Shown one piece after another: positions 211-13,774 of a DNA stretch of 24,000 bases (position 1 is its first letter; each line of letters starts with the position of its first letter). The notes beneath the pieces were generated by a model. It saw nothing but the letters and a program-made list of their open reading frames with translations. It was not told the DNA's origin and did no database searches. The stretch is from the NCBI RefSeq assembly GCF_048595755.1, contig NZ_CP184360.1, positions 1,463,090 through 1,487,089 of the forward strand, in the 5' to 3' direction. The translations under genes and the position numbers were made by a program. Source of the stretch: Luteococcus sp. OSA5 (GTDB taxonomy: Bacteria > Actinomycetota > Actinomycetes > Propionibacteriales > Propionibacteriaceae).

Positions 211-714
211 TCAGGCGGCGTCCGGCGTGGCCGGGCGTCGCCGCTGGCCGCGCACGAACGCCACGATGCCGGCCACGGCCAGCAGCACCAGCACGATGGC
301 CAGCGCGGGGTGCACCCGCCACAGTGTGACGAAGGCCCCCACCCCGATGAAGCCGGCGCTGGCATAGACCGTTGCCCAGATGATGCAGCCCAGCACCAGC
401 GCGGGAAGGTAGCGACGCAGCGGCATCCGGGTGAAGCCGGCCACCAGGTTCACCATGGTCTGCACCCCGACGGTCAGGAAGCTCAGCGTGATGGCGGGAG
501 CTCCCCACCGGTTGAGCTTGTCCTCGGCGGCGACGAAGCCCGGCCGGTTGGCCAGGGTGGCGTTGCGGGTCTCACTGCCCCGACGCAGCAGCCTCCCCAC
601 CAGGTAGGTGGCGGAGGCGCGGAAGAAGACGATCACGAATAGGGCGCCGGCCACGACGGCGAAGGGCGCATTCCAGCTGAGCGGATTCCACCAGGCACTT
701 TGCAGGGGCACCAC
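211..714 (-). CDS. DedA / VTT (SNARE-associated) family inner-membrane protein
   Basis: 167-aa ORF with GTG start at 714, preceded by AGGGTGGA. Multi-TM protein. The block RWGAPAITLSFLTVGVQTMVNLVAGFTRMPLRRYLPALVLGCIIWA fits the DedA core pattern (k.G...v.l.Rf.pg.Rt...l.aG...m....F......g...W). It lies 39 nt downstream of the kinase gene on the same strand. Confidence 0.75.
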   Translation of the reverse strand: MVPLQSAWWNPLSWNAPFAVVAGALFVIVFFRASATYLVGRLLRRGSETRNATLANRPGFVAAEDKLNRWGAPAITLSFLTVGVQTMVNLVAGFTRMPLRRYLPALVLGCIIWATVYASAGFIGVGAFVTLWRVHPALAIVLVLLAVAGIVAFVRGQRRRPATPDAA

Positions 715-753
715 TCCACCCTACGCGCCGCGACGGTGGGCGCCGGGCCGGGT

Positions 754-3081
754 TCACAGCTGCAGCTGGGCGGGGCCCTCCTGCGGCGGTTCCGGTGCCG
801 CACGCCGGGGCCCGAACCCGCGGCCCAGCGGCAGCACGATGCGGGCGAACTCCTCGTCGGTCTCCACCTGGCTGAAACTCGACTGCCATCGTTCGTACTG
901 CTTGCGGCTGGGAGAGAGAACCACCACCGAGATCTGGTCGGGGGCGGCGCTGACCGTCATGCGCTGCATCAGGTGACGGGGCGGGCCGATGTGGTCGAGC
1001 ATCAGGGCGGCCGCCTCCACCTGTGTGCGGTCATTGCCCTGGTTGAGCGTCGAGACCAGCAGCCAGCCCTCCTCGCGGCGTGCGGCCAGCGCGGTCAGCA
1101 GGTGGTGGGCGTTGGGGCCCAGCACCAGTTCGTCGCGAAGGGTCGCCTCGATCAGTTCGGCTTGGCGACGCAATTCCGGCTCGCTGGAGTGACGACGCCC
1201 CTCGGCCACGTCGCGCAGCAGGGGGAGGGCGTCACCCGTGACCCGGCGCGACCAGTACTGGTCCAGGTGGTGGCGTGCGCTGAGGCGGTTGGACTCGCGG
1301 CGCATCGTCAGTTCGATGTGGCGCTGCGTGGCGTCGCGCTCGGCGATGCGCTGCGCGGAGTGGTAGGCGATCAGCCCGACGGTGGCCTCGCCCAGACCCA
1401 CCGAGATGACCGGATGCAGGTTCTCCCACGGAAGCTGCCAGCCGAAGCGGGCCACCAGCAGCAGCACCATGGCGGCGAACCAGCCTGCCATCGCCGCCAC
1501 GGCAGTGCGTAGACGCACCTGCAGCACCACCAGCTGCAACAGGGAGGTGCAACCCCAGGCCAGCCACAGGTAGTGCACGGTGTCGGTGTCGTCGGGGGCG
1601 CACAGCAACTGCACCGCCCAGGAGCCGATGGCGACGAAGAGCAGGACCCCCGCATCACGTTCGGTCAGGGGGCGTCGGTGCAGGCGACGGATGCTCAGCA
1701 CACCCGTGACCAGCACCGCGATGGTCGCCAGCAGGGCGGGCCAGCGGGGATTGGCCAGGGGAAGCAGCATGATGGTCAGGATCGGCACCTGCGCCAGGTT
1801 GGGCCATGCCATGCGGGTGAGGACCTGGCGGGCACGGGCCTGCGCGTCCCCGGAGTCCAGCCGTGCCGGCTCCTCGGGAGCGGGCCAGACCAGCTCCACC
1901 GTGGTGCCGCGCCCCGGGCGGGAGGTGATGGTGGCACGGCCTCCCACCTCGCGCAGCCGATCGCCGATCGAGCGACGCACGCCCAACCGGCCGCGTGGGA
2001 TCTGGTCGGGGTCGAAACCGCGACCGTTGTCGAGGATCGTGCAGGTCCACTGCTGCGAGTCGTGGTTGAGTTCGACGGTGCAGTCGCTGGCGTGGGCATG
2101 CGAGGTGACATTGCCGAGGGCCTCGTGGGTGGCGTCGGCGAGGGCGCGGGCCACGTGGTGGGGCAGCTTGGGGGCCTCTCCTAGCAGGGTGGCCCCGGCC
2201 GCGGCCAGTGCCGGATCGGCGCGCACCATCTCTGCCAGGTCGACGGCCTGGTCGTCGTCGTGGTGCAGGTGGACGCTGAGCGCCTCCACGGCGGATCGGC
2301 ATTCCTCTGCTGCCATCTGGGGCGGCAGGTTGCCGTCGCGGCTCAGCGCGTGCAGGGCGTGCAGGACATGGTCGTGCAGCAGCCGGGCCGCTTCACGCTT
2401 GCCCTCCGTCTGCGCGGTGATGGTGTCGTGCTCCTGTTCGGCGGCCTGCCTGGTGGACGTGGCCGCGTCACTGCGTCGGGCCAGGTCGAGCAGACCGTCG
2501 CAGAACAGCAGCAGGATGGCGATGGGCACCACGATGCCCGGCACTGGTTGCAACGAGAACCGGTCGACCGGGGCCCCCACCAGGTACTGGACCACCACGT
2601 CGATCACCGGCAGGGTGGCGAAAATGCCGATGAGCAGTCTGAGGTAGTGGCGCCGCGGCAGGATGATGATGGCCATCGTGGCCCACGGCAGGGACCAGTA
2701 ACCGGGAGCCCAGAAGTTCTCGGGGTAGATGGTCTGGCGTACCGGGATGATCAGCGCGATGCCGGTGAACAGTGGAATGGCGGTGGCCACCAGCACGTCG
2801 CGGGTGAGCCACCCCCGCAGCAGCACGACGAGCACCGCGAACCAGTGCAACAGCACCAGCGACAACCCGACGATCACCCCACTGGGATGGTTGATCTCCT
2901 GCCGGATGACGGTGAGCAGCGCCCCGGGCAGCAGCAGGGTCCATGCCCCCAGCGCGGTCAGCCGCAAACCGCGCAGGACGGCGGCCTCCATTGCCCCCGG
3001 AGTGCGTGGCGCAGATGCCCGTGTCGTACGCTCGGTCGGCGTCGTGGGCGGGGCCTCTCGCCCAGCCGCGACACCATCCAT
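754..3081 (-). CDS. Atypical membrane sensor histidine kinase (HisKA_3/NarL-type core) fused to a second membrane module and a C-terminal soluble domain
   Basis: Continuous frame. H-box ARLLHDHVLHAL (His codon about 2374-2376), N-box HEALGNVTSHA, G1 DNGRGF, G2-like GRLGVRRSIGDRLREVGG (kinase core about 1882-2400). About 6 hydrophobic helices precede the core. A second block of about 4-5 hydrophobic helices (about 1390-1812) and a soluble tail of about 210 aa (757-1390) follow it. Start chosen at ATG 3081, preceded by GGGAGGA with a 4-nt spacer. Alternative ATG at 2991, where GC3 rises from about 63% to above 90%. The track's 951-aa version (to 3609) overlaps the upstream gene and is rejected. 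Confidence 0.8.
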   Translation of the reverse strand: MDGVAAGREAPPTTPTERTTRASAPRTPGAMEAAVLRGLRLTALGAWTLLLPGALLTVIRQEINHPSGVIVGLSLVLLHWFAVLVVLLRGWLTRDVLVATAIPLFTGIALIIPVRQTIYPENFWAPGYWSLPWATMAIIILPRRHYLRLLIGIFATLPVIDVVVQYLVGAPVDRFSLQPVPGIVVPIAILLLFCDGLLDLARRSDAATSTRQAAEQEHDTITAQTEGKREAARLLHDHVLHALHALSRDGNLPPQMAAEECRSAVEALSVHLHHDDDQAVDLAEMVRADPALAAAGATLLGEAPKLPHHVARALADATHEALGNVTSHAHASDCTVELNHDSQQWTCTILDNGRGFDPDQIPRGRLGVRRSIGDRLREVGGRATITSRPGRGTTVELVWPAPEEPARLDSGDAQARARQVLTRMAWPNLAQVPILTIMLLPLANPRWPALLATIAVLVTGVLSIRRLHRRPLTERDAGVLLFVAIGSWAVQLLCAPDDTDTVHYLWLAWGCTSLLQLVVLQVRLRTAVAAMAGWFAAMVLLLVARFGWQLPWENLHPVISVGLGEATVGLIAYHSAQRIAERDATQRHIELTMRRESNRLSARHHLDQYWSRRVTGDALPLLRDVAEGRRHSSEPELRRQAELIEATLRDELVLGPNAHHLLTALAARREEGWLLVSTLNQGNDRTQVEAAALMLDHIGPPRHLMQRMTVSAAPDQISVVVLSPSRKQYERWQSSFSQVETDEEFARIVLPLGRGFGPRRAAPEPPQEGPAQLQL

Positions 3082-3100
3082 GATTCCTCCCACCACAGGT

Positions 3101-3127
3101 TCGGGGCGCCACGGATGGGCGCCCCGA
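3101..3127 (-). promoter_or_regulatory. Strong GC-rich intercistronic hairpin between paralogue P1 and the kinase gene
   Basis: Perfect 10-bp inverted repeat TCGGGGCGCC (3101-3110) / GGCGCCCCGA (3118-3127) with a 7-nt loop. No U-tract follows on the minus strand. It lies between the P1 stop (3171) and the kinase SD/start (3081). Confidence 0.45.
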
Positions 3128-3170
3128 TCTTTCATCCAAGCCTGCCGGAGAGTCGAGGGCAATGGGGGGA

Positions 3171-3758
3171 TCAGCGGTGCCCGAGCAGGCGGCGTGTCCC
3201 CGGGGTGTCGGTGGTCAGTCCCAGCCGCTGCCGGTGCAGCCGGATCGCGACGGTGAGCAGATCGGCGGTCTCCTCGCGGCTGCACCCCGCGACGACGGGG
3301 AGAGCCACGCCCTCGGCCAGATAGGGGCGGGTGATGCAGGTCAGCACGATCCCCTCCTGCTCGGCCCAGTCGTAACCCTCCGGTGTGAAGGTCACCACGA
3401 TCCGACGACGGTGGTCGTCTCCGCCGCGGTCGTCCTTGCCGGAGTGCGCGCCACTGAGGTACTGCCAGGGCAGCACCCGGCCGTTCCGTTCGGCCAGACC
3501 TTCGGGCCTGATCCGGATCGTGCGGCGGATGTGCACCAGGCGGTGCGCGGCCCACGCCACCCCGACCAGGGTCAGGAGTGTGACGAAGCCCAGTCCCAGC
3601 CGTTGCCAACTGCTCTCCACCTCGAGGAACATGCCCAGCGCCAGGCTGAACAGGATGGCCTGCAGCAGCAGTTCACCGAGCACCCGCCACCCACTGCCCG
3701 GCAGGTCGACACAGGGGGAACCGTGGACAGCGTTGAGGTGCTTTTGAAGACGACTCAT
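3171..3758 (-). CDS. Small 2-TM membrane protein, paralogue P1 (PH-like domain suspected, conserved C-terminal helix)
   Basis: 195 aa, ATG at 3758, GC3 about 86%. N-terminus MSRLQKHLNAVH, two hydrophobic helices, then RRTIRIRPEGLAERNGRVLPWQYL (bacterial PH-like pattern) and C-terminal GCSREETADLLTVAIRLHRQRLGL. Clearly homologous to the ORFs at 3771-4328 and 4387-4968. Confidence 0.8.
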   Translation of the reverse strand: MSRLQKHLNAVHGSPCVDLPGSGWRVLGELLLQAILFSLALGMFLEVESSWQRLGLGFVTLLTLVGVAWAAHRLVHIRRTIRIRPEGLAERNGRVLPWQYLSGAHSGKDDRGGDDHRRRIVVTFTPEGYDWAEQEGIVLTCITRPYLAEGVALPVVAGCSREETADLLTVAIRLHRQRLGLTTDTPGTRRLLGHR

Positions 3759-3770
3759 GACAGCTCGCGA

Positions 3771-4328
3771 TCAGACGACTGGTGGCAGCCCGAGGTGGCT
3801 GCGGTGGGCTCGGATGGCGGCGGAGAGCACCTTGGCGGTCTGTTCGGTGGTGCAGCCCTTGATCAGGGGCATGGGGATGCCGCGCAGGTCACTGCGGTAG
3901 GTGGTGCGGCCGCGCAGGGTGCCGTGCTGGCGCAGCCACGCCTGGCCCTCATCGGTCAGGGAGAGGATGGCCAGTTCCTCGTTGGGGCCATTGACGTTGG
4001 GCTGCTCGGTGCGGAAGGCGCCGGCGATCAGGGGCCAGGGCATCGGTGGCGATCCGCTCCACGACAGGCCTTGGGGGCTGATCCGGTACAACCGCGGGGC
4101 ACGTCCGAGGTTGACCAGGTTGGACACCGCCGCGACTGCCATCCCCGCCCCAAAGACCAGCGCCAGCAGACGCGTGGCCGTGGACTGGGCAGAGGCTGCG
4201 GTCGCCAACAGCAGCAGGGCGAGGACCGTCGCGGCCCCCGCCTTCCACAACAGCTGGGAGGTCTTGCCCGGCAGCTGGGCGGTGGGCTGCTGCTGGACCA
4301 GGCGGATCAGCTCGTCGGGCTTGCCCAT
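3771..4328 (-). CDS. Small 2-TM membrane protein, paralogue P2 (more divergent member)
   Basis: Start chosen at internal ATG 4328 (MGKPDELIRL), preceded by AGGAG with a 4-nt spacer. The track's start at 4427 would overlap P3. Shares RLYRISPQGLSWSG, LTDEGQAWLRQHG and GCTTEQTAKVLSAAIRAHRSHLGLPP with P1 and P3. Confidence 0.75.
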   Translation of the reverse strand: MGKPDELIRLVQQQPTAQLPGKTSQLLWKAGAATVLALLLLATAASAQSTATRLLALVFGAGMAVAAVSNLVNLGRAPRLYRISPQGLSWSGSPPMPWPLIAGAFRTEQPNVNGPNEELAILSLTDEGQAWLRQHGTLRGRTTYRSDLRGIPMPLIKGCTTEQTAKVLSAAIRAHRSHLGLPPVV

Positions 4329-4343
4329 GTGACTCCTGTGCTC

Positions 4344-4371
4344 GATGGGATCGACTTGATGGGATCGACTT
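4344..4371. repeat. Perfect 14-bp tandem direct repeat (GATGGGATCGACTT x2) in the P3-P2 intergenic spacer
   Basis: Read directly: ctc GATGGGATCGACTT GATGGGATCGACTT gcttgcgca. It is locally less GC-rich than the surroundings and lies between the P3 stop (4387) and the P2 SD/start (4328). Confidence 0.9.
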
Positions 4372-4386
4372 GCTTGCGCATCCGGT

Positions 4387-4968
4387 TCATCGCAGGCTCC
4401 AGGGGGCGACGTCGGGTGGTAGCCCAAGGTGCTGGCGGTGCAGCCGGATGGCGACGGTGAGCAGCTCGGCCGTCTCTTGACGGCTGCATCCCCGAGCCTC
4501 GGGAATGGGGAAGCCCAGGGCCCGTTCGGGCTTGGCCACCTGGATGAGGGAAAGTCCCTGGGCGCGCGCCCAGGCGCGGCCCTCCGGGGTGGGGAGTGCG
4601 AGGACGCGCTTTCGGGTGGTGCCCTCGTAGCCTGAGGCTTCCTCGCCGTGGGTGGCGCCGGCCAGCATCTCCCAGCCGATCACCCGGTCATTGCGGGTTG
4701 AGAGGCCGTGCCGCGTGATCCGGATGGCCGGGCGGAGGGTGAGCAGCAGCCAGGAGCAGTAGACGACGCCCGCCAGCGGCAGCAGGGTGGCGAGCCCCAA
4801 CAGGAGGAGCTTCCAAGGTCCGGGCTTGCCCATCACCATGGCCGCGACGAGAAAGACCACCATGGCGATCATCGGGAGCAGCTGGGCGCCTTCACGCCAG
4901 GTGCTGCCGGGGATGTCCACCTCCTCATGGCGGTGGATTGCGTCCAGGTGCTTGTGCAGTTGGCTCAT
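4387..4968 (-). CDS. Small 2-TM membrane protein, paralogue P3
   Basis: 193 aa, ATG at 4968, preceded by AGGAG with a 4-nt spacer. MSQLHKHLDAIH N-terminus, two hydrophobic helices, LRPAIRITRHGLSTRNDRVIGWEML, C-terminal GCSRQETAELLTVAIRLHRQHLGLPP. Closest paralogue of P1. Confidence 0.8.
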   Translation of the reverse strand: MSQLHKHLDAIHRHEEVDIPGSTWREGAQLLPMIAMVVFLVAAMVMGKPGPWKLLLLGLATLLPLAGVVYCSWLLLTLRPAIRITRHGLSTRNDRVIGWEMLAGATHGEEASGYEGTTRKRVLALPTPEGRAWARAQGLSLIQVAKPERALGFPIPEARGCSRQETAELLTVAIRLHRQHLGLPPDVAPWSLR

Positions 4969-4980
4969 GGGGCTCCTGGT

Positions 4981-5088
4981 TCAGGCGACGGACGGCAGGA
5001 CGAGGTTGAGCGCGGTCCGCCGCCTGTTGGAGGCCAGGTCGACGGTCGTCGAGGTCTGGACGGCGATCAGATGGTACGGCGTGACCAT
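4981..5088 (-). CDS. Candidate 35-aa small ORF (MVTPYHLIAVQTSTTVDLASNRRRTALNLVLPSVA) immediately upstream of P3
   Basis: About 33-34 of 35 codons end in G/C, while middle codon positions are only about 50% GC, and the bias collapses upstream of the ATG. A TAACGT (-10-like, TAnnnT) lies 7 nt upstream of the ATG, a leaderless-type layout. The stop TGA at 4981-4983 is 12 nt before the P3 ATG and in the same frame as P3. Too short to be confident. Confidence 0.3.
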   Translation of the reverse strand: MVTPYHLIAVQTSTTVDLASNRRRTALNLVLPSVA

Positions 5089-5197
5089 GCCACCCACGTT
5101 AAGGGGAAGGCAGTTCGTCCGGATCGCGCGATTGCGCACCCCGGCGCTTTTCGAACGTGTCCTGGGCCGGTCTTCGCTCGATCCGGACGATCCATCT

Positions 5198-6025
5198 TCA
5201 GCAGATCGGCTGGAAGACGTCGGTGACGAGGTCTTCCGGGGCCGCCTGGTCCGGTGTCACCAGGTAGTGGTTGAACGGCTTGGCTGCCAGCGTCCCGTCG
5301 CTGCGCAGGGCGAGGCCGTCGGCGACCAGCCGGCTGTTGATCCGGTCGTGGGCGGTGGTGATCTGGTCATAGGGCCCGGCGACGTGCGCGACCAGGCAGT
5401 CGCGTTCCGGCAGCTCGAGGACCTGCAAGGGGGCGGTGGTCGTGGTGCCCGGCGCGACGGGGAAGAAGACCGACAGCTCGACGTCGTGTTCGGTGTACTC
5501 TTCGCAGTGCTCGATGACCCCGCACGGGCCGATCGGGGTGATGCCCTGGGCCTGCAGCAGCGGGAAGAACTGCTGCCACAGCTGGCCCTCGTCGGAGTAG
5601 GTGGGTACGACGCCGTGCAGGGCGACGAGGGTCTGGGCGGGCACGGTGGTGCGTTCGACGGTGATGGACATGCTGGGCTCTCCTTGGCTGAGAAGTGTGG
5701 TGATCAGGGCCAGCCGGGTCTGGGCGGCGCGCTGTTCGGCGACGAGGGTCTGGCGCTGCAGTTCCAACGCACTGGCCCAGGCCGACGTCCCGCGGGCGGC
5801 GAGGAGGGCTGAGATGGCGGAGACGCCGAAGCCGACGTCGCGCAGGTTGCGGATGTCCGCGGCATCCCGCAGCTGCTCCGGGGAGTAGCGGCGGTATCCC
5901 GTCCACGCGTCGACGTCCGCGGGCACCAGGACACCGTGGGTGTCGTAGTGGCGCAGCATCCGTACGGACAGGCGGGTCAGCGAACTGAACTCCCCGATCG
6001 TCATGAGCTTCGTGGTCTCGACCAT
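5198..6025 (-). CDS. MerR-family transcriptional regulator with a C-terminal GyrI-like (BmrR/AraC-E-bind type) effector domain
   Basis: N-terminal MTIGEFSSLTRLSVRMLRHYDTHGVLVPADVDAWTGYRRYSPEQL is a canonical MerR HTH. A coiled-coil linker follows, then an effector-type domain of about 150 aa. Start is ATG 6025 (fits a leaderless promoter layout) or ATG 6004. Confidence 0.85.
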   Translation of the reverse strand: MVETTKLMTIGEFSSLTRLSVRMLRHYDTHGVLVPADVDAWTGYRRYSPEQLRDAADIRNLRDVGFGVSAISALLAARGTSAWASALELQRQTLVAEQRAAQTRLALITTLLSQGEPSMSITVERTTVPAQTLVALHGVVPTYSDEGQLWQQFFPLLQAQGITPIGPCGVIEHCEEYTEHDVELSVFFPVAPGTTTTAPLQVLELPERDCLVAHVAGPYDQITTAHDRINSRLVADGLALRSDGTLAAKPFNHYLVTPDQAAPEDLVTDVFQPIC

Positions 6026-6029
6026 GGCT

Positions 6030-6091
6030 CCACTGTGGGCCCTGACACGGTGGCAGGGTCAAGGGCTGGCTCAGGGCTTCGCCTACAGTGG
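6030..6091. promoter_or_regulatory. Divergent merR / nucleotidyltransferase promoter region with a MerR-type dyad
   Basis: Minus strand: TTGACC (6057-6062), a 19-nt spacer, CACAGT (6032-6037), then 6 nt and ATG 6025. The spacer contains the dyad CTGaCAC-g-GTGgCAG (6042-6056). Plus strand: TACAGT (6084-6089), 6 nt, then ATG 6096. The two core regions form an inverted repeat CCACTGTGGGC (6030-6040) / GCCTACAGTGG (6081-6091). Confidence 0.4.
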
Positions 6092-6095
6092 GCGC

Positions 6096-6500
6096 ATGAG
6101 CGTTGCGGAGGTGGTGGAGCAGTTGCGCGCTGACAAGGCGTCGGGCGTGTTGGCCCAGCTGTGCGACGAACATGGCGTCGAACTCCTCACGCTCTTTGGC
6201 AGTGCACGGCTCGATCCGGAAACTGCCCATGACGTGGATGTCGCCTACCAGTTCCGTCCGGGGGCGCCGCGTGACGATCTGGCCGTGGTGAACGCCCTGG
6301 GGGAACGCTACGGAGACCTGCTGGACATCATGCCGCTGGACCGCGCGGGGGAGGTGGCTCGTTACGCCGCCCTGGGGCCCGCCGACGTGCTGGTGGAGTT
6401 GGATGGTGGGGTTTTCGCACGCTCCCAGATGAGGGCATTTCGTGACTACTGCGACACGCAACGCTTCCGTGACCTGATGGTGGAGGTGATGGCCCGATGA
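6096..6500 (+). CDS. Minimal nucleotidyltransferase (MNT / Pol-beta superfamily) domain protein
   Basis: 134 aa from ATG 6096. The track's upstream 31 aa are antisense to the merR start and are rejected. LTLFGSARLDPETAHDVDVAY carries the G-S ... D-x-D nucleotidyltransferase signature. Size and tail (FRDYCDTQRFRD) are typical of MNT-type antitoxin-like proteins. Confidence 0.75.
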   Translation: MSVAEVVEQLRADKASGVLAQLCDEHGVELLTLFGSARLDPETAHDVDVAYQFRPGAPRDDLAVVNALGERYGDLLDIMPLDRAGEVARYAALGPADVLVELDGGVFARSQMRAFRDYCDTQRFRDLMVEVMAR

Positions 6501-6751
6501 GTCCGGATGACCTGACGAGTGCACTCGAAAACGGACTCAGGGCCCTGGACCCTGCGGGAGCCGGTCCGTCGGCGCCGGCTGACGAGTATGCGCCGGAGGC
6601 GGTGGAGATTGGGCGACGGCTGCCCGAAGCCACTTGCGTCGGCGAGGTGCAGGAGCTGATCCACCACGTGATGGTGAGCTCCTTCTCACCCGTCAACGTG
6701 GGCGGCGCGAGCCAGTATCGGGAGCTGGCCGAGACGCTCTGGAATCGCTGA
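6497..6751 (+). CDS. 84-aa hypothetical protein translationally coupled to the nucleotidyltransferase
   Basis: ATGA start/stop overlap at 6497-6500. GC3 is about 79%, the same as the upstream gene (about 78%). No R-x4-6-H HEPN motif. The pattern LDP...P.DEYAPEAVEI...V.E.I..V is reminiscent, from memory only, of small helical DUF1871-type proteins. Confidence 0.55.
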   Translation: MSPDDLTSALENGLRALDPAGAGPSAPADEYAPEAVEIGRRLPEATCVGEVQELIHHVMVSSFSPVNVGGASQYRELAETLWNR

Positions 6752-6758
6752 TCGGGCG

Positions 6759-7223
6759 TCAGCGGCGCGACGTCCTCCTGCCCAGCATCAACCCGGCGAC
6801 GAGGCTGGCACCCCAGATCACGAACAGCGGATCCCACAGCCAGGCGTGGCCGATCATCGCCATCCGGTCGTAGCCCGGGCCGCCCACCAGGCCGGCCAGC
6901 ACCAGGTTGCAGACGACGGTGTTCACCCCGCCCCACGCGATCAGGATGACGGCGCCCAACCAACAGACCGTCCGTGCCCACCGGCGGTTGAGCAGGCCGA
7001 ATGTGGTCAGGGCGACGGGGAAGAGTGCGAAGCCCGCCTTGACCAGGGCGACGGGGATCAGGAGCCAGCGTCGGCCCTCGAAGGCCTGGACCAGTTCGGT
7101 GCCGATGGTGCTGAGTAGCCAGTTCCCGCCGAGTGCCCAGTAGAGGCTCAATCCGGCGTGGACAAGCCCCGCGAGGGCGGCGATGATCAGGAGCGGGTGG
7201 ATGCGGCGGGGTGTCGTCTGCAC
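6759..7223 (-). CDS. DUF3995-like integral membrane protein
   Basis: 154 aa, GTG start at 7223, about 4 TM helices. N-terminal HAGLSLYWALGGNW matches the H.YWA.GG.W motif I associate with DUF3995. Confidence 0.65.
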   Translation of the reverse strand: MQTTPRRIHPLLIIAALAGLVHAGLSLYWALGGNWLLSTIGTELVQAFEGRRWLLIPVALVKAGFALFPVALTTFGLLNRRWARTVCWLGAVILIAWGGVNTVVCNLVLAGLVGGPGYDRMAMIGHAWLWDPLFVIWGASLVAGLMLGRRTSRR

Positions 7224-7297
7224 CGCTCCAGTCTTCTTGTGGGGCTGGCCGAGCGCATCAGGGGAACCACCCGGATGGCCCCGATGAAGGAGCAGAA

Positions 7298-7828
7298 GTG
7301 GTCAACAGCCAGACCTTGAGCGAAGCGGACCGGCGGCTGCTGGCCTTGTGGGCGGCCGATTGCGCTTCGCGCGTCGTGTCGCTCGTCGACGGTGACGCGG
7401 AGTGCCTCGACACCATCACCGACGCCGTGGAGCGCGCCCGAGCCTTCGGAAATGGTGAGAGCACCGCCGCGGCCGAGATCAAGCTGCGGATGCGGGCGGT
7501 GAAGGCAGCGGGCAAGGCCGATTCCCCGGCCGGTGCAGCTGCCGCTCGGTCCGTCGCCCAAGCGGCAGCGGTGGCGCACATGGGCGCCCATGCGTTGGGA
7601 GCCGCCGCTTACGCCGCGAAAGCGGTGTCGCTGAGCCGCGGTGTGGATGCCGTTGATGACGAGATAGCCTGGCAGATCTCCCACCTGAGCTCCGACCAGC
7701 GTCGGGCGCTGGCGCAACTGCCCGAAGTTGGCTGTGACGAGCCGGGGCCGCTGGGGTCGGGCCTGCTGAGCCGCGGCTTCCTCGGCGAAGCGGTGCGATG
7801 CCTCCAGGGGGCAGTCGCGGGGGAGTGA
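7298..7828 (+). CDS. Imm5-like putative immunity protein (family often mis-annotated as 'exonuclease SbcC')
   Basis: Start chosen at GTG 7298, preceded by GAAGGAG (7286-7292), which avoids overlap with the divergent gene. All-alpha, Ala-rich. LLALWAADCASRVVSL ... AVERARAFGNGE ... AAARSVAQAAAVAHMGAHALGAAAYAAKAV ... EIAWQ matches the recalled pattern of the Imm5-like family. Confidence 0.65.
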   Translation: MVNSQTLSEADRRLLALWAADCASRVVSLVDGDAECLDTITDAVERARAFGNGESTAAAEIKLRMRAVKAAGKADSPAGAAAARSVAQAAAVAHMGAHALGAAAYAAKAVSLSRGVDAVDDEIAWQISHLSSDQRRALAQLPEVGCDEPGPLGSGLLSRGFLGEAVRCLQGAVAGE

Positions 7829-7987: not shown

Positions 7988-9781
7988 GTGCCGAGCTGGG
8001 TGGCCATCTTCCGAGAAAGAACCTCATTGTCGCTCACCACACATTTCGCATCGCTTCTACCGAATCGTGACGATGTCACAGAGGTGCGCCAGCACTGGAA
8101 GGGCGACATTCTGGCCGGCATCACCACCGGCATCGTGGCTCTGCCCCTCGCCCTGGCCTTCGGTGTTGCTTCCGGCATCGGCGCAACCGCAGGTCTGATC
8201 ACCGCGATCGTCGCCGGAATTGCCGCCGCAATCTTCGGCGGCTCCCGATTCCAGGTTTCCGGCCCCACCGGGGCGATGGTCGTGATCCTCGCGCCTCTCG
8301 TTGCCCAGCACGGCCTCGCCGTCATCCCGCTGTTGTCGATTCTCGCGGGCCTCATCCTGGTCGCCGGTGCTCTTGCCGGAGTTGGTCGGGCAGTCTCGCT
8401 CATTCCTTGGCCCGTCATCGAGGGCTTCACTGCCGGCATCGGTTTGATCCTGATCCTGCAGCAGATTCCGAACGCTCTCGGTGTGGAAGCTGAGGTGGGA
8501 GCCAACACCCTTGCCGCCGGCATTGACGCGATCGTCCAGGCTGACTACCCGAGTGCCCTCATCCCACTGGGAGTCGCCCTTGGCACCGCACTTCTCATCG
8601 TCGTCTTCGACAAGATTTCACCCCAGTTCCCCGGCACTCTTGCCGCCATCGTCATCGCCACTCTCGGCGTCATGGCCGCGAAATTCCAGATTGCAAACAT
8701 CGGCGAGATCCCGGACTCGCTCCCCGCTCCGACTCTGCCCGCCTTCAGCACCGACCTGCTCATGGCACTCGTGCCTGGCGCCATTTCCATCGCACTTCTC
8801 GCCGGTATCGAGTCCCTCCTCTCGGCGCGAGTGGCAGCCGGCATGGTCCGCGGAGGTACCTACCACCCCGACCGTGAACTCTTCGGTCAAGGCATCGCCA
8901 ACGCCGCTTCCGGAATGTTCGGCGGCATGCCCGCGACGGGCGCCATCGTGCGCACGGCCGTCAACATCCGTGCCGGCGGACGCTCCCGCCTTTCTCCGAT
9001 CGTGCACGCGCTGCTGCTCATGCTCATCGTCTACGCGGCATCCGACGTCGTTTCGGTCATCCCGATGGCCGCCCTCGCCGGGGTCCTCTTCGTCACCGCT
9101 GGCCGCATGATTCCCTGGGAGGCGATGAGTCAGATTCTGCGCTCGACGCGCGCGGATGCCCTGATCTTCATCCTGGCTGCGATCGTCACGGTGGTCTTCG
9201 ACCTCATCTGGGCGATTCTGCTGGGTGTGGTCATCGCAGTCATCGTCATGATGCGCCACTTCGCCCGCCTGTCCGGCATTCATCGCGAAGGTCCCGTGGA
9301 GGATCCCCGCATTCGCATTCTGCGGATCGACGGCGCGATGTTCTTCGGGGTTGCCGACCGCATCAGCCACGAAATCACCCGCCTCGATGCCGTTCGTGTT
9401 GTGATCCTGCGCCTGTCACGCGTGGGCATCATGGATGCCACGGGTGCGAAGGTTCTCTCCGAAATCGTCACCGCCCTGCGGCAGGCCGACAACCACGTCC
9501 TGCTCGTCGGCCTGCGCGAGCAGCACGAGGCACTGACCAACGTGCTCGGACTTCCGCAGGCGATGGACGCGCCTGATCGATTCTTCGACTCGATGGACGA
9601 GGCTCTGGTTGCGGCCGAGCAGATCGTTGCCGAAGACGAGCGTGAGCTCGAGGAAGAGCTCCGGCGACAGGCGCTCGCCGAGGCCTCTGGGGCGCCTGAT
9701 GCCACCGTCTCGACTTCCGCGTCTGGAAAGTTCGGAAGTCAGCTTGCTGCACGGGTCAACAGGATGCGTGGGCGCGGCTAG
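7988..9781 (+). CDS. SulP-family anion transporter with C-terminal STAS domain and an acidic coiled tail
   Basis: GDILAGITTGIVALPLALAFGVASG ... FGGSRFQVSGPTGAMVV are typical SulP motifs. The STAS-like part is ILRIDGAMFFGVADRI ... VILRLSRVGIMDATGAKVL. GTG 7988 has GGAGAGGG 9 nt upstream. Alternative starts at 8000 or 8027. GC3 is only about 74%, versus about 96% in the neighbouring cycA. Confidence 0.85.
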   Translation: MPSWVAIFRERTSLSLTTHFASLLPNRDDVTEVRQHWKGDILAGITTGIVALPLALAFGVASGIGATAGLITAIVAGIAAAIFGGSRFQVSGPTGAMVVILAPLVAQHGLAVIPLLSILAGLILVAGALAGVGRAVSLIPWPVIEGFTAGIGLILILQQIPNALGVEAEVGANTLAAGIDAIVQADYPSALIPLGVALGTALLIVVFDKISPQFPGTLAAIVIATLGVMAAKFQIANIGEIPDSLPAPTLPAFSTDLLMALVPGAISIALLAGIESLLSARVAAGMVRGGTYHPDRELFGQGIANAASGMFGGMPATGAIVRTAVNIRAGGRSRLSPIVHALLLMLIVYAASDVVSVIPMAALAGVLFVTAGRMIPWEAMSQILRSTRADALIFILAAIVTVVFDLIWAILLGVVIAVIVMMRHFARLSGIHREGPVEDPRIRILRIDGAMFFGVADRISHEITRLDAVRVVILRLSRVGIMDATGAKVLSEIVTALRQADNHVLLVGLREQHEALTNVLGLPQAMDAPDRFFDSMDEALVAAEQIVAEDERELEEELRRQALAEASGAPDATVSTSASGKFGSQLAARVNRMRGRG

Positions 9782-9810
9782 TTGACTCTTGTCACGACGC
9801 TGTGGACGCG

Positions 9811-9848
9811 AAACGCCCTCGGGAGCCAGAAGCTCGCCGAGGGCGTTT
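9811..9848. terminator. Bidirectional intrinsic-terminator-like hairpin between SulP and tRNA-Ser
   Basis: AAACGCCCTCGG-GAGC / GCTC-g-CCGAGGGCGTTT, a stem of about 16 bp with one bulge and a CAGAA loop. It is followed by TTTTC on the plus strand (after the SulP stop at 9781) and TTTCG on the minus strand (after the tRNA 3' end at 9864). Confidence 0.6.
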
Positions 9849-9863
9849 TCCCCTTGTCAGGGA

Positions 9864-9951
9864 TGGCGGAGGATACGGGATTTGAACCCGTGAGGGCGTG
9901 AACCCAACCCGCTTTCCAAGCGAGCGCCATAGGCCTCTAGGCGAATCCTCC
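9864..9951 (-). tRNA. tRNA-Ser (anticodon GGA), long variable arm, CCA encoded
   Basis: The reverse complement GGAGGATTCGCCTAGAGGCCTATGGCGCTCGCTTGGAAAGCGGGTTGGGTTCACGCCCTCACGGGTTCAAATCCCGTATCCTCCGCCA folds by hand as follows. Acceptor GGAGGAT/ATCCTCC. Anticodon stem CTCGC/GCGGG with loop TTGGAAA. T-arm ACGGG-TTCAAAT-CCCGT. Long extra arm, discriminator G, then CCA. Confidence 0.92.
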
Positions 9952-10006
9952 GTGGGAGAGCGTACACGTTGGGTTCACCTCGCCGCCAATCGGCGGTCTG
10001 TTGTGG

Positions 10007-11437
10007 CTAGCTGTCGTGGATGATCTCGGCGTACAGGGTGCCTGGGGTGACCTCGTCGGCGTCGGGCGCGACGTGCTTGCGTCCGAAGAACCACGCCACG
10101 CCCAGGACCATGAACCACACCGGGGTGACCAGCAGGGCCTGCAGGGTGTCCTTCTCCTGGGTGAGCACCGCCAGGATGAACACGAAGAAGACCAGCACCA
10201 CCTGCGGCATGAAGCGGGCCCCTGGCATCTTGAAGACGCTGTTGGCGTGCGCCTCGGGGTAGCGCTTCAGGTAGGTCATGTAGCTGAGCAGGATCAAGGT
10301 CCACACGAAGATGAACAGCACCGCGGAGATCGTCGTGACGATGGTGAAGGCGCCCATGATCGAGTCGTTGAGCATCAGCAGGATCGCGGTGAGGATCAGC
10401 GTCACCGAGACCACCAACCCTGCCACCGGAACCCCGTTGCCGGAGAGCTTGCCGAAGCGCTTGGGTGACATGCCGCGCTGGGCCAGCCCGTAGAGCATCC
10501 GTGAGGTGGAGTAGATGCCCGAATTGCAGGAGCTGGACGCCGAGGTCAGCACGACGAAGTTCATCACCGATGCGGCCGCGGCCAGACCCACCAGGCCGAA
10601 CAGGTTCACGAATGGTGACATGGTGGGGTCCACCTCGTCCCAGGGCGTGACGCACATGATCGCGGCCAGGGCGAGCACGTAGAAGACGACCACTCGCACC
10701 GGGATCGAGTTGATCGCCTTGGGCAAGGTCTTGACCGGGTCCTTGGTCTCCGCAGAGGTGGTGCCCACCAGCTCGATGCCGACGAAGGCGAAGACCGCAA
10801 TCTGGAAGGCCGCCAGGAAGCCCTTGAGGCCGGTGGGGAAGAAGCCGCCGTGGCTCCACAGGTTCGACAGTTGCGCCACCTGCCCACCGGGCGAGGTGAA
10901 GCGAGTGACGAGCATGAAGCCGGCGGCCAGGATCAGCACCACGATCGCGATCACCTTGATCAGGGCGAACCAGAACTCCAGCTCACCGAAGAGCCGCACG
11001 GTGAGCAGGTTGAGCCCCAGCAGCGCCAACATGACCGCCGCGGCCAGCGCCACCGACAGCGGCATGTCGTGCACCCAGTAGTCCCAGTAGCCGCTGATCG
11101 CCACCACGTCGGCCATGCCGGTCACCACCCAGCACATCCAGTAGGTCCAGCCGGAGAAGAAGCCGGCCCAGGGCCCGAGCATGTCGGTGCTGAAGTCCTG
11201 GAAGCTCTTGTAGTCCAGGTTGTGCAGCAGCAATTCGCCCATCGCGCGCATGACGAAGAAGAGCATCACGCCGATGATGGTGTACACCAGCAGCAGCGAC
11301 GGCCCCGCGACGTGGACCGTCTTGCCGGAGCCCATGAACAGGCCCGTGCCGATGGCACCGCCGATGACGATCAGTTGGATGTGTCGATTGCTCAGGCTGC
11401 GCTGCAGGCCCTCGCTGTGCTCGGTGGTCTGGGTCAT
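10007..11437 (-). CDS. cycA: D-serine/D-alanine/glycine:H+ symporter (APC amino-acid permease)
   Basis: 476 aa, ATG at 11437 with GAAGGAAG SD. LSNRHIQLIVIGGAIGTGLFMGSGKTVHVAGPSLLLVYTIIGVMLFFVMRAMGELLLHNLDYKSFQDFSTDMLGPWAGFFSGWTYWMCWVVTGMADVVAI is near-colinear with the recalled E. coli CycA (LTNRHIQLIAIGGAIGTGLFMGSGKTISLAGPSIIFVYMIIGFMLFFVMRAMGELLLSNLEYKSF...). Similarity continues through FQIAVFAFVGIELVGTTSAETKDP. Confidence 0.9.
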   Translation of the reverse strand: MTQTTEHSEGLQRSLSNRHIQLIVIGGAIGTGLFMGSGKTVHVAGPSLLLVYTIIGVMLFFVMRAMGELLLHNLDYKSFQDFSTDMLGPWAGFFSGWTYWMCWVVTGMADVVAISGYWDYWVHDMPLSVALAAAVMLALLGLNLLTVRLFGELEFWFALIKVIAIVVLILAAGFMLVTRFTSPGGQVAQLSNLWSHGGFFPTGLKGFLAAFQIAVFAFVGIELVGTTSAETKDPVKTLPKAINSIPVRVVVFYVLALAAIMCVTPWDEVDPTMSPFVNLFGLVGLAAAASVMNFVVLTSASSSCNSGIYSTSRMLYGLAQRGMSPKRFGKLSGNGVPVAGLVVSVTLILTAILLMLNDSIMGAFTIVTTISAVLFIFVWTLILLSYMTYLKRYPEAHANSVFKMPGARFMPQVVLVFFVFILAVLTQEKDTLQALLVTPVWFMVLGVAWFFGRKHVAPDADEVTPGTLYAEIIHDS

Positions 11438-12202: not shown

Positions 12203-13774
12203 TCAGCCGCGCAGCAGGTCTCGACGCCGATGCAGCAGGATGGCAACGCCCAGGGCGCACGCCGTGGTCACGGCGATGGCCGCGGTGGCGACACGATCAC
12301 CCGCTTCCAGTGGCACTTGGCCAATGAGTTGCAGCAGCGACAGGTCCTTGGCCCACTGCGGCAGACGCAAGGGTTCGCCCAGGATTCCCACCACCAGCGC
12401 CCATCCCAGCGGCAACCAGGCGAGCCAGCGCAACCGCGGCGCGAGGCCGACGAAGACCGCACCGATCCCCACCAACGCCAGGCAGGGCACGAGATTCCAC
12501 GCCCCGGCGCGAAGGGCCCGCTCGAAGGCGTCGCGCTGGTCCAGCACGCTCCACTGCACCAGTCCGAGCACGGCAGCCGAGGCCAGAGTGATGACCAGGG
12601 TGCTCACCAGGGCCAACCCGGTGAAGGCCGCCCACCAACGCACACGTCCCTGCGTCGCGGACAGCAGGAGGCCATAGCGGCCGGATTCCTCCTCCTGACC
12701 CAAGCGCATCACCACTGTCAGCCCTGCTGCCGAGGCCATCGTGTTGGTCAACAGCAGCGCCATGATCGTGCCCAGCGACGATGCCTGCTCACCGAAGGCC
12801 TCGGCCAGGCTCGGGTTCGCGCGCATCACGTCGACGAATTCCTGCTGCATGGCACCGATCGCCGCAGCCCACACCACGGCGCCCAAGCCCCAGGCGAGGA
12901 TGCCGCCGCGGCCCAGCCGCCATGCCAAGCCAAGCGGCCCCCGCAACCATGGCGAGGCGGTGGGGCGGCCCAGCTTCACCGGCAAGACACCGGAACCCAG
13001 ATCGCGACGCAGGGCCAGGCCGACCCCGATCGTCGTGGCCAACAGGGCCGACGCGCCAAAGGCGGCCAGGGGCCACCAGACCCACTCGCCCCAGGGGCGT
13101 GACTCCGCAATCCATCCCAGCGGTGAGAGCCAGACCTGGTCCAACTGCCGCCCGTCGACGACCGCGCGCATGGTGAAGGTGGCCAGCGTTAGGGCGATTC
13201 CGCTTGTGAGGGCGGTGCGGGCGGTGGAGGCCAGCTGTGCCAGCACCAGTCCCACCGCGGAGGCCGACATTCCACAGGCGGTCAGGATTGCGGAGTAGCG
13301 GATGCTTCCCGCGGTGGGAAGGCCGACTGTCACCAGCCCTGCGGTCGTGAGGGCGGCGAACATCAGCCACGCGAGGGTGACGGTCACACTGGCGGCCAGC
13401 GGCACGGTGGCGCGGGAGATCCGCCCCGCGGTGACCAGTTCCATGATTCCGGTGTCCTCCAGGTGCCGCGTCAGTCGGATCGGCAGCAGCAGGCCGATCA
13501 CGGGCAGCGCCAACTGCCCCATGAAACCCACCTCATAGGCGACGATTCCGCCGAGGGTCTCCAGATCGTGGCCCCGTCCGTTGAAGGTCGCAGCCGCGGG
13601 GGAGGAGCCCATCGTCTGCTGGTAGGTCAGGCGCTGTTCCGCGGTGGGGTACAGCTCCGCGATTCCGGCGGCGGTGGCGGTGACGACGACGGCCAGCAGC
13701 GCCGGGGTCAGCAGCAGGAGTCCGCGGTGGGTGCGCCACTGCAAGGCCATGACGCGGCCGAGTCCGGTGGTCAT
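12203..13774 (-). CDS. ABC-2 type exporter permease (12-TM, 'putative exporter of polyketide antibiotics' COG3559-like)
   Basis: 523 aa and highly hydrophobic, with two sets of about 6 TM helices. The ATGA overlap (13771-13774) with the upstream ATPase gene indicates an operon. Confidence 0.8.
   Translation of the reverse strand: MTTGLGRVMALQWRTHRGLLLLTPALLAVVVTATAAGIAELYPTAEQRLTYQQTMGSSPAAATFNGRGHDLETLGGIVAYEVGFMGQLALPVIGLLLPIRLTRHLEDTGIMELVTAGRISRATVPLAASVTVTLAWLMFAALTTAGLVTVGLPTAGSIRYSAILTACGMSASAVGLVLAQLASTARTALTSGIALTLATFTMRAVVDGRQLDQVWLSPLGWIAESRPWGEWVWWPLAAFGASALLATTIGVGLALRRDLGSGVLPVKLGRPTASPWLRGPLGLAWRLGRGGILAWGLGAVVWAAAIGAMQQEFVDVMRANPSLAEAFGEQASSLGTIMALLLTNTMASAAGLTVVMRLGQEEESGRYGLLLSATQGRVRWWAAFTGLALVSTLVITLASAAVLGLVQWSVLDQRDAFERALRAGAWNLVPCLALVGIGAVFVGLAPRLRWLAWLPLGWALVVGILGEPLRLPQWAKDLSLLQLIGQVPLEAGDRVATAAIAVTTACALGVAILLHRRRDLLRG

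What the first reader, a model, noticed from the sequence alone, without database searches (positions are those of the whole stretch)
754..5088. Candidate uncharacterised membrane signalling/envelope locus: three tandem 2-TM paralogues, a dual-module histidine kinase and DedA, all co-directional
Six consecutive minus-strand ORFs lie with gaps of 12-89 nt. They are a 35-aa candidate ORF, three paralogous small membrane proteins (193, 185 and 195 aa), an atypical 776-aa kinase, and a DedA/VTT protein. The three paralogues share one architecture. Each has a short cytosolic N-terminus (MS.L.KHL.A.H in two of them), two TM helices and a PH-like segment (R..IRI...GL......W..L). Each also has a motif (T/P).EG.(D/A)W and a strictly conserved C-terminal block GC(S/T)..(E/Q)TA..L..AIR.HR..LGL that I cannot assign to any named domain. 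No response regulator is present anywhere in the window. If the kinase signals, its partner is either unlinked or non-canonical, and the small paralogues are obvious candidates for accessory or sensor subunits. I know of no described system with this gene combination.
Basis: partly seen in the sequence, partly recalled or inferred. Interest (0 to 1): 0.7.

Follow-up and report, generated by a model that had tools for sequence, protein, structure and literature searches.

The report
Rare membrane-protein array beside orphan kinase
Three neighbouring genes encode diverged copies of a very rare, unnamed two-helix membrane protein and form their own gene array, which differs between strains; the array sits next to a sensor kinase only in this strain lineage, so the locus is probably not a new signalling system.

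Summary
Window 211-5088 (minus strand) carries a 35-codon ORF, three true paralogues (193, 185 and 195 aa), a 775-aa histidine kinase and a DedA protein. The window is Luteococcus sp. OSA5.

The proposed single "signalling/envelope system" is not supported.
- The paralogues belong to a tiny family: about 25 proteins among roughly 15 billion. It occurs only in a few Actinomycetota and has no Pfam, NCBIfam, PADLOC, PHROGs, PDB or BFVD match.
- In 8 of 9 distinct loci the family forms tandem arrays of 2-4 diverged copies. Outside the OSA5 lineage no array is adjacent to this kinase.
- In Luteococcus sp. H101, 8 kb including opposite-strand thiamine genes separates array from kinase. In another strain a formate/nitrite transporter follows the array. 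The kinase orthologue in Sow4_B9 keeps DedA but has PhzF upstream.
- The array appears to have its own leaderless promoter (TANNNT 6-8 nt before the first ATG in 8 of 9 loci). Strong hairpins flank it on both sides.
- The 35-aa ORF is a decayed stub of a fourth paralogue.
- Array content and order differ between strains whose flanks are 97% identical.

Best reading: an autonomous operon for a hetero-oligomeric N-in/C-in membrane complex, closest in architecture to YdbS/YdbT. It lies beside an orphan kinase-DedA pair. Function is unproven.

The parts
5198..6025 (-). MerR-HTH plus GyrI-like effector-binding regulator (275 aa), directly upstream of and co-directional with the array in all four Luteococcus loci.
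   Evidence: Pfam MerR_1 4.5e-14 and GyrI-like 1.8e-10. It is 91-97% identical in L001, L002 and L003, always followed by the array.
5106..5199 (-). Strong stem-loop starting at the MerR stop codon; a candidate terminator that separates MerR from the array.
   Evidence: RNA fold -46.2 kcal/mol, z -4.1. Equivalent hairpins occur in L001 (z -6.5), L002 and L003. Window and L001 differ by a paired change in both arms (CCGGATCG/CGATCCGG against CCCGATCG/CGATCGGG).
5096..5101 (-). TAACGT, a -10-like TANNNT box 7 nt upstream of the first ATG of the array, with no Shine-Dalgarno sequence. This is the inferred leaderless promoter of the array.
   Evidence: A TANNNT hexamer lies 6-8 nt before the first start codon in 8 of 9 family loci across genera.
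4981..5088 (-). 35-codon stub: a decayed, truncated remnant of a fourth (B-type) paralogue that keeps the array's original start and promoter.
4387..4968 (-). par1 (193 aa, C-type): two-TM hairpin with a cytoplasmic alpha/beta domain of about 115 aa.
   Evidence: AGGAG Shine-Dalgarno sequence. 82% identical to L001 copy 3. NCBI WP_420176800 hypothetical protein.
3771..4328 (-). par2 (185 aa, A-type paralogue).
   Evidence: AGGAG Shine-Dalgarno sequence. 48-50% identical to A-type copies of L001, L002 and L003. WP_420176799.
3171..3758 (-). par3 (195 aa, E-type paralogue).
   Evidence: 95% identical to P0005 in L016. WP_420176798.
3101..3127 (-). GC-rich hairpin of 10-11 bp between the par3 stop and the kinase start; a candidate terminator or attenuator at the end of the array.
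   Evidence: Pattern scan. Fold -22.9 kcal/mol, z -4.4.
754..3081 (-). Orphan sensor histidine kinase. It has 5 TM helices, a HisKA_3-like DHp domain (H-box LLHDHVLHAL) and HATPase_c. These are followed by a second block of at least 3 TM helices and a conserved C-terminal domain of about 200 aa with unknown function.
   Evidence: HATPase_c 7.8e-11. MacS/LiaS/NarX-type NCBIfam matches lie far below cut-off. 100% identical to the Luteococcus sp. OSA5 sensor kinase. Conservation map and TM scan. The C-half has no Pfam match and no internal duplication.
211..714 (-). DedA/VTT-domain membrane protein (167 aa), 39 nt downstream of the kinase.
   Evidence: VTT_dom 2.1e-12. 77% identical to the VTT gene that follows the kinase orthologue (with DoxX between them) in Luteococcus sp. 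Sow4_B9.

Best explanation
The region is a juxtaposition of separate units, not one system.

Unit 1 is the stub plus par1, par2 and par3. It is an autonomous operon, transcribed from its own leaderless promoter and bounded by hairpins. It encodes diverged copies of a very rare actinobacterial membrane-protein family. Each copy has a short cytoplasmic N-terminus with a conserved VDxPG strand, an N-in/C-in two-helix hairpin, and a cytoplasmic domain of about 115 aa that ends in a conserved basic helix.

The family is almost always encoded as 2-4 adjacent diverged copies, often with 4-8 nt gene overlaps. From this I infer that the copies assemble into a hetero-oligomeric inner-membrane complex. 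Its most likely mode of action resembles the adjacent-gene pairs of membrane-anchored bPH proteins (YdbS/YdbT, DdE/DdF). These handle membrane-active peptides or envelope stress. In Luteococcus the array may be under the neighbouring MerR/GyrI-like regulator. This functional step is inference only, with a probability of about 0.25.

Unit 2 is the kinase plus DedA, a conserved pair. The kinase is an orphan HisKA_3-type kinase whose partner is unlinked.

The array abuts the kinase in the OSA5 lineage only because the roughly 8 kb that separates them in a congener is absent here.
For: Family rarity and lack of annotation:
- 4 hits among 5.8e9 clusters.
- 14 representatives among 1.84e9.
- 1 genome among 185,579 species.
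- The sister subfamily has 8 proteins.
- No Pfam, NCBIfam, PADLOC or PHROGs family.
- No plasmid, phage or JGI-metagenome relatives.

Arrays everywhere:
- L001 has 4 copies, L002 has 2 and L003 has 3.
- L004 is sub1-sub2-sub1, L006 and L012 are sub2-sub2-sub1, and L011 is sub2-sub1.
- Start/stop overlaps occur in L001, L004 and L006.

Independence from the kinase. The kinase-DedA-GSH-synthetase synteny is conserved.

Own transcription signals: TANNNT 6-8 nt before the first ATG in 8 of 9 loci, and hairpins after MerR and after par3.

Topology and fold: AlphaFold2 pLDDT 81.6 for the full protein and 86.0 for the domain, and the positive-inside analysis.

Turnover between strains:
- Gene order is ABCD, ABD, AD and stub-C-A-E in different strains.
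- The stub is a gene remnant.
- Between window and L001, array dN is 0.125-0.46 against 0.006-0.019 for four of the five flanking genes (Imm5-like 0.067). dN/dS stays below 1.

The YdbS/YdbT and DdE/DdF precedent (a 2-TM protein with a PH domain, adjacent co-directional genes, both needed for export of a leaderless bacteriocin) is described in PMC8657885.
Against: - No experiment and no homology ties the family to any function.
- bPH Pfam models do not match.
- Foldseek finds no PH or other fold at E<0.001, with TM-scores of 0.38 or less.
- Hetero-oligomerisation was not modelled.
- All five genes from par1 to DedA are co-directional with short gaps. The two hairpins lack U-tracts, so read-through into the kinase cannot be excluded.
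- The adjacency is kept in a second, 94%-identical strain.
- One locus (L013) has a single copy. L004 has a Shine-Dalgarno sequence instead of a leaderless start.
- No MerR-type dyad operator was found in the array promoter.
Confidence: 0.6

Rival explanations
1. The three paralogues are accessory or sensor subunits of the atypical kinase, and together with DedA they form one membrane signalling and envelope system expressed as one transcript.
For: The genes are co-directional with gaps of 12-89 nt. The kinase has no linked response regulator and an unexplained second membrane and cytoplasmic module that could dock partners. The par2-par3-kinase order is retained in L016.
Against: Adjacency is absent in H101, L002, Sow4_B9, L009 and L015, and in all Microbacteriaceae arrays. 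A strong hairpin lies between par3 and the kinase. The kinase has its own strong Shine-Dalgarno sequence. The kinase family and the array family do not co-occur beyond one lineage.
Confidence: 0.1
2. The array is a conflict module (immunity to a membrane-acting toxin or bacteriocin, or a phage-defence or exclusion device) that evolves by gene birth and death. The diverged copies would give different specificities rather than forming one complex.
For: Copy number, order and alleles change between strains with 97%-identical flanks, and a decayed copy is present. In Luteococcus the array lies near an Imm5-like gene and an MNT/HepT-type toxin-antitoxin remnant. The taxonomic distribution is very patchy.
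Against: No PADLOC or PHROGs match. There are no toxin, bacteriocin or mobile-element genes next to any array. In Agrococcus-type genomes the array sits in a stable housekeeping context next to proC and a cation-efflux gene. dN/dS is below 1. Only about 5 residues are exposed outside the cell.
Confidence: 0.15
3. The array is the regulated target of the adjacent MerR/GyrI-like xenobiotic sensor, so the pair forms a drug- or toxin-inducible membrane-protection module specific to Luteococcus.
For: MerR is followed by the array in 4 of 4 Luteococcus loci. GyrI-like domains bind small molecules, and BmrR-type MerR regulators activate neighbouring resistance genes (established knowledge).
Against: All four loci are congeneric with conserved flanks, so the linkage may be plain synteny. 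Arrays outside Luteococcus lack MerR. A hairpin separates MerR from the array. No dyad operator or long-spacer promoter was recognised.
Confidence: 0.15

Closest known systems
YdbS/YdbT of Bacillus subtilis and DdE/DdF, LnqC/LnqD and Orf7/Orf8 of leaderless-bacteriocin loci (bPH_2, PF03703)
   Same: A small protein with an N-terminal two-TM hairpin followed by a beta-rich cytoplasmic domain capped by a C-terminal helix. It is encoded as adjacent, co-directional, distantly related genes that act together (PMC8657885). One distant family member once carried the name 'PH domain-containing protein'.
   Different: No sequence match to any bPH Pfam model. Foldseek gives no PH hit better than E 0.7 with TM 0.38. 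The domain is longer (about 115 aa against 72-80) and has an inserted helix. No multi-repeat YdbT-like partner is present, and no bacteriocin or ABC genes lie nearby.
STM3941 family protein (NCBIfam NF041635)
   Same: Recurrent weak matches over the TM hairpin plus the first strands of the domain in 6 of 17 members.
   Different: The best score is 18.4 bits against a cut-off of 40, with E 0.0015. Only profile positions 5-88 of 157 are covered. The family itself has no known function.
HisKA_3-class sensor kinases (MacS, LiaS, NarX/NarQ, UhpB)
   Same: The H-box LHDxxxxxL and the N, G1 and G2 boxes are conserved. NCBIfam MacS matches at 1.4e-17 over aa 210-401.
   Different: All scores lie far below the family cut-offs. 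There is no adjacent NarL-type regulator in six contexts. An extra C-terminal membrane block and an unknown 200-aa domain are present. The family is confined to Luteococcus-like bacteria.
DedA/VTT-domain proteins (for example the undecaprenyl-phosphate transporter UptA)
   Same: VTT_dom matches at 2.1e-12.
   Different: UptA and PRK10847 scores lie far below cut-off. The protein is short (167 aa). Its substrate was not tested.
BmrR-type MerR regulators with a GyrI-like domain
   Same: The same two-domain architecture, next to membrane-protein genes.
   Different: No operator was identified. A hairpin lies between the regulator and the array.

Membership tests
bPH_2 / YdbS-YdbT-type bacterial PH-domain membrane proteins | Sequence match to PF03703 or another bPH Pfam model at gathering score. 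| tested here: not met
   No bPH family was listed for any of 17 + 10 members, even at E up to 10.
bPH_2 / YdbS-YdbT-type bacterial PH-domain membrane proteins | PH fold: two antiparallel sheets (7 strands) capped by a C-terminal helix. | tested here: inconclusive
bPH_2 / YdbS-YdbT-type bacterial PH-domain membrane proteins | N-terminal two-TM hairpin with a cytoplasmic C-terminal domain. | tested here: met
   Helices at 24-46 and 51-77. Positive-inside distribution over 17 members.
bPH_2 / YdbS-YdbT-type bacterial PH-domain membrane proteins | Adjacent, co-directional genes for related partners. | tested here: met
   Arrays of 2-4 copies in 8 of 9 distinct loci.
Two-component signalling system | Kinase with a phospho-acceptor His box and an ATP-binding HATPase_c domain. 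| tested here: met
   HATPase_c 7.8e-11. LLHDHVLHAL and the N and G boxes are conserved in 15 homologues.
Two-component signalling system | Cognate response regulator encoded next to the kinase. | tested here: not met
   No receiver domain in the window ORFs that were scanned, nor beside homologues in L003, L007, L009 or L015.
   Adjacency occurs only in OSA5 and the 94%-identical L016. It is absent elsewhere.
   AF-Multimer and RNA data were not available. A hairpin (z -4.4) lies between par3 and the kinase.
STM3941 family (NF041635) | Score at or above the curated cut-off of 40 bits. | tested here: not met
   Best 18.4 bits, E 0.0015, partial coverage.
DedA / VTT | VTT domain above the gathering score. 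| tested here: met
   48 bits against 33.9.
Anti-phage defence systems (PADLOC) and phage protein families (PHROGs) | Match to any model. | tested here: not met
   No match for the paralogues, kinase or DedA.

The most novel reading that the evidence does not exclude
The paralogues carry a cytoplasmic fold with no solved or viral counterpart, mounted on a two-helix membrane hairpin. Their diverged copies would build a hetero-oligomeric membrane device of a kind not yet described. One version is a conflict or immunity module that evolves by gene birth and death. Another is that the OSA5 lineage has recruited the device as an input module for the orphan two-block kinase.
Probability: 0.15. Interest if true: 0.6.

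Novelty: new variant of a known kind. Interest (0 to 1): 0.3.

Why it matters
The main value is a correction. An attractive 'new signalling system' dissolves into a lineage-specific juxtaposition, so it should not be propagated as a system.

Three modest points remain of interest:
- A confidently modelled protein family has essentially no relatives among about 15 billion proteins and no fold match. It is always encoded as small arrays that are reshuffled between near-identical strains.
- It is a clean example of a leaderless-promoter operon whose first gene has decayed to a 35-codon stub.
- An orphan kinase family confined to Luteococcus carries an unexplained second membrane and cytoplasmic module.

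The narrow taxonomic range (Luteococcus and a few Microbacteriaceae) limits general impact.

Tried and rejected
- Pfam, NCBIfam, PADLOC and PHROGs scans of all family members gave nothing above threshold.
- Sub-threshold matches (DUF6232, Rv1678_C, holin-X, SLATT_1, Geo26A) mainly cover only the TM hairpin. I treated them as compositional.
- A profile search of PDB sequences gave only chance hits.
- Foldseek of the full-length and domain-only models against PDB, and of the full-length model against BFVD, found no hit at E<0.001.
- tblastn against plasmids and phages found no match.
- Two JGI-metagenome scans found no relatives.
- I tested whether the kinase is an internal duplication ('dual module'). 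hhalign of the N-half against the C-half gave E 0.18-0.19 and BLASTP E 0.5, so I rejected it.
- A Pfam scan of the kinase C-terminal domain from six homologues found nothing.
- An apparent in-frame fusion of two subfamily-2 copies in L012 is a scaffold gap of unknown residues, not a fusion.
- The sigma-70 consensus scan found no promoter. This is uninformative for high-GC actinobacteria.
- I looked for a MerR-type dyad operator by eye in the aligned intergenic regions and recognised none. The inverted-repeat tool call failed on strand syntax.


Full report
**Source and layout.** The kinase ORF is 100% identical to a sensor histidine kinase of Luteococcus sp. OSA5. The three small proteins are exact matches to OSA5 hypothetical proteins WP_420176800, WP_420176799 and WP_420176798. 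OSA5 is the type strain of L. struthionis, isolated from ostrich faeces (PMC13286285). The window is 64-74% G+C.

On the minus strand, in order of transcription, lie:
- a MerR/GyrI-like regulator (5198-6025);
- a 35-codon ORF (4981-5088);
- par1 (4387-4968), par2 (3771-4328) and par3 (3171-3758);
- a histidine kinase (754-3081);
- DedA (211-714).

The gaps match the finding. The kinase is 775 aa from the ATG at 3081. That start has a GGGAGG Shine-Dalgarno sequence and is also chosen by the gene call in L016. NCBI starts 30 codons later.

**The paralogues are real.**
- Pairwise BLASTP E-values are 1e-48, 1e-20 and 3e-18.
- GC3 is 0.84-0.89 for par1, par3 and the flanking genes; par2's stop-to-stop frame did not pass that filter and was not scored.
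- dN/dS against orthologues is 0.28-0.66, so the genes are under selection.

**Anatomy of the protein.** AlphaFold2 was run with the 17-sequence family alignment. It gives pLDDT 81.6 and pTM 0.72 for par1, and pLDDT 86.0 and pTM 0.80 for the C-terminal domain alone. The predicted elements of par1 are:
- helix 3-13 and strand 17-21, which carries the conserved VDxPG motif;
- TM helices 24-46 and 51-77;
- four strands, a helix (128-137) and two more strands;
- a long C-terminal helix (163-180) carrying the GC(S/T)xxxTAxxLxxAIRxxRxxLGLP block.

Over 17 members, the 5-residue inter-helix loop averages 0.24 K+R. The 20 residues after TM2 average 4.35 K+R. By the positive-inside rule both termini and the domain are cytoplasmic, and almost nothing is exposed outside the cell.

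**What family is it?** No Pfam, NCBIfam, PADLOC or PHROGs model matches any member.

The only recurrent sub-threshold signal is the uncharacterised STM3941 family. It appears in 6 of 17 members, at best 18 bits against a cut-off of 40, and covers the hairpin plus the first strands.

**Rarity.**
- The word-indexed search of 5.8 billion clusters found 4 relatives.
- A full HMMER scan of 1.84 billion representatives found 14.
- One genome among 185,579 species representatives has it: Luteococcus sp. H101.
- JGI metagenomes, plasmids and phages have none.
- A sister subfamily, found as neighbours of distant members, has 8 proteins, including one from Agrococcus casei.

Family loci are listed below.

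| Locus | Array and neighbours |
|---|---|
| L001 | MerR, then 4 copies, then contig end |
| L002 | MerR, then 2 copies, then a formate/nitrite transporter |
| L003 (H101) | MerR, then 3 copies, then an 8-kb spacer, then a 37%-identical kinase homologue |
| L004/L005 | sub1-sub2-sub1 beside an acetyltransferase |
| L006 and L012 (Agrococcus type) | sub2-sub2-sub1 between housekeeping genes and proC |
| L011 (Pseudoclavibacter) | sub2-sub1 |
| L013 | a single sub2 copy |

The 8-kb spacer in L003 holds TenA, ThiD and ThiE on the opposite strand, then PhzF, an ABC transporter and DoxX.

Kinase loci give the same answer:
- The 64% orthologue in Sow4_B9 has PhzF upstream and DoxX, VTT and glutathione synthetase downstream.
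- Homologues in L009 and L015 sit in unrelated contexts.
- Only L016, a 2.2-kb contig 94% identical to the window, repeats the par2-par3-kinase order.

So the tandem array itself is the conserved unit. The kinase-DedA pair is a second conserved unit (DedA 77%, kinase 64%, same downstream GSH-synthetase gene). Their adjacency is lineage-specific.

**Transcription signals (inferred from sequence).**
- A stable stem-loop begins at the MerR stop codon in all four Luteococcus loci (z -2.9 to -6.5). Window and L001 differ by a paired change in both arms.
- A TANNNT hexamer lies 6-8 nt before the first ATG of the array, with no Shine-Dalgarno sequence, in 8 of 9 loci from several genera. This is the usual layout of actinobacterial leaderless mRNAs (established knowledge). 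At about 70% G+C the chance expectation is roughly 0.01 per locus (my estimate).
- In the window the box is TAACGT at 5096-5101 and the ATG is at 5088.
- par1 and par2 have AGGAG Shine-Dalgarno sequences.
- A 10-11-bp GC hairpin (3101-3127, -22.9 kcal/mol, z -4.4) lies between par3 and the kinase.
- Neither hairpin has a U-tract, so read-through cannot be excluded.

**The 35-aa ORF is a gene remnant.**
- Its start and upstream region align with the first array gene of L001.
- Its body matches the 5' end of B-type copies best: 73% over 70 nt, score 32 against 15 or less for other types. AVQTSTTVDLASN compares with AIQTSTAVDLPAN.
- The invariant Pro-Gly is lost and the frame stops at codon 36, 12 nt before par1.

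**Turnover between strains.** Five orthogroups (A to E) can be defined. Their order is ABCD in L001, ABD in L003, AD in L002 and stub-C-A-E in the window.

Between window and L001, four of the five flanking genes tested (MerR, orf165, orf84, DUF3995) are 96-99% identical, with dN 0.006-0.019 and dS 0.10 or less (the Imm5-like gene diverges faster; see below). The shared C-type copy is 82% identical (dN 0.125, dS 0.45) and the A-type copy is 50% identical. Against L016, par2, par3 and the kinase diverge alike, at 92-95%. The pattern therefore fits replacement and rearrangement of copies rather than uniformly fast mutation.

**The kinase.**
- It has five predicted TM helices, then a DHp region with the H-box LLHDHVLHAL and conserved N, G1 and G2 boxes (HisKA_3 class).
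- MacS, LiaS and NarX models match far below their cut-offs.
- A second membrane block of at least three helices follows, then a C-terminal domain of about 200 aa with conserved motifs such as WSxRVTxEALPL and EATLRDELVLGP.
- That C-terminal domain has no Pfam match and no detectable similarity to the N-half.
- About 18 full-length homologues exist, and all those that carry a source name are from Luteococcus (the rest are unnamed metagenomic sequences). At least OSA5 and Sow4_B9 each have two paralogues.
- No response regulator lies beside any of the six contexts seen.

**Mechanism.** Several things are shown here. The family members are N-in/C-in membrane proteins with a conserved cytoplasmic domain. 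They are nearly always encoded as arrays of diverged copies, with start/stop overlaps in several loci. The array is independent of the kinase.

Other steps are inferred. The copies probably assemble into a hetero-oligomeric membrane complex. The closest working analogy is the YdbS/YdbT and DdE/DdF type of paired membrane PH-domain proteins. In that type, two adjacent genes are jointly required for export of, or self-protection from, a leaderless bacteriocin (PMC8657885). I put this functional analogy at about 0.25.

The rival readings and my rough probabilities are:
- a conflict or immunity cassette, about 0.15;
- a MerR-controlled stress module, about 0.15;
- kinase accessory subunits, about 0.1.

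**Verdict.** The system-level interpretation is not supported. What remains is a rare, unannotated, strain-variable membrane-protein array beside an orphan kinase-DedA pair. Interest is low to moderate.

Noticed in passing
window 754-1870 (kinase residues about 405-775): The kinase carries a second membrane block and a conserved C-terminal domain of about 200 aa (motifs WSxRVTxEALPL, EATLRDELVLGP, GW, VTLS, VVL.PS). It has no Pfam match and no similarity to the kinase core. The family has about 18 full-length homologues; all that carry a source name are from Luteococcus. At least OSA5 and Sow4_B9 have two paralogues, and no response regulator was adjacent in any context seen.
   Followed up: partly
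window 2991 vs 3081: NCBI starts the kinase at 2991 (745 aa). The ATG at 3081 has a strong GGGAGG Shine-Dalgarno sequence, and the independent gene call in L016 uses it. The annotated start may be 30 codons too short.
   Followed up: partly
window 6003-6751 (+); L002 1195-2300: A 165-aa ORF gives weak PADLOC PDC-S09 matches and is followed by an 84-aa ORF. In L002 a HepT-like toxin gene lies between the two homologues, but it is missing in the window and in L001. This looks like a toxin-antitoxin locus that has lost its toxin.
   Followed up: partly
window 7211-7828 (+): An Imm5-like putative immunity protein (1.8e-29) has no toxin gene nearby. It diverges faster than its neighbours between window and L001 (dS 0.36 against about 0.05).
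   Followed up: no
window 5106-5199 (-); L001 3706-3800; L002 3211-3260; L003 8703-8750: The hairpin after MerR is long-looped in window and L001 and compact (13-14 bp) in L002 and L003. The arms show paired changes between strains. The 3' arm reaches into the region just upstream of the array's -10 box, so it might couple termination to promoter activity.
   Followed up: partly
window 12203-13774 (-) with 13771-14691 (-) and 14777-15358 (+): A 523-aa ORF with no Pfam match overlaps the stop of an ABC ATPase gene by 4 nt. It lies next to a divergent TetR regulator and may be an unannotated ABC permease.
   Followed up: no
window 8001-11000: G+C drops to about 64% over the SulP/STAS transporter (7988-9781) and the amino-acid permease (10007-11437), against 69-74% elsewhere.
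   Followed up: no
L007 3919-6294 and 12015-14273: In Luteococcus sp. Sow4_B9 two paralogues of the two-block kinase (33% identical) lie 6 kb apart. Between them are DoxX, VTT, a glutathione-synthetase-like gene and a MATCAP-domain gene.
   Followed up: no
L006 10535-10590: A perfect hairpin of about 23 bp (-38 kcal/mol, z -8.6) closes the Agrococcus-type array. It is shared with the convergent proC gene.
   Followed up: no
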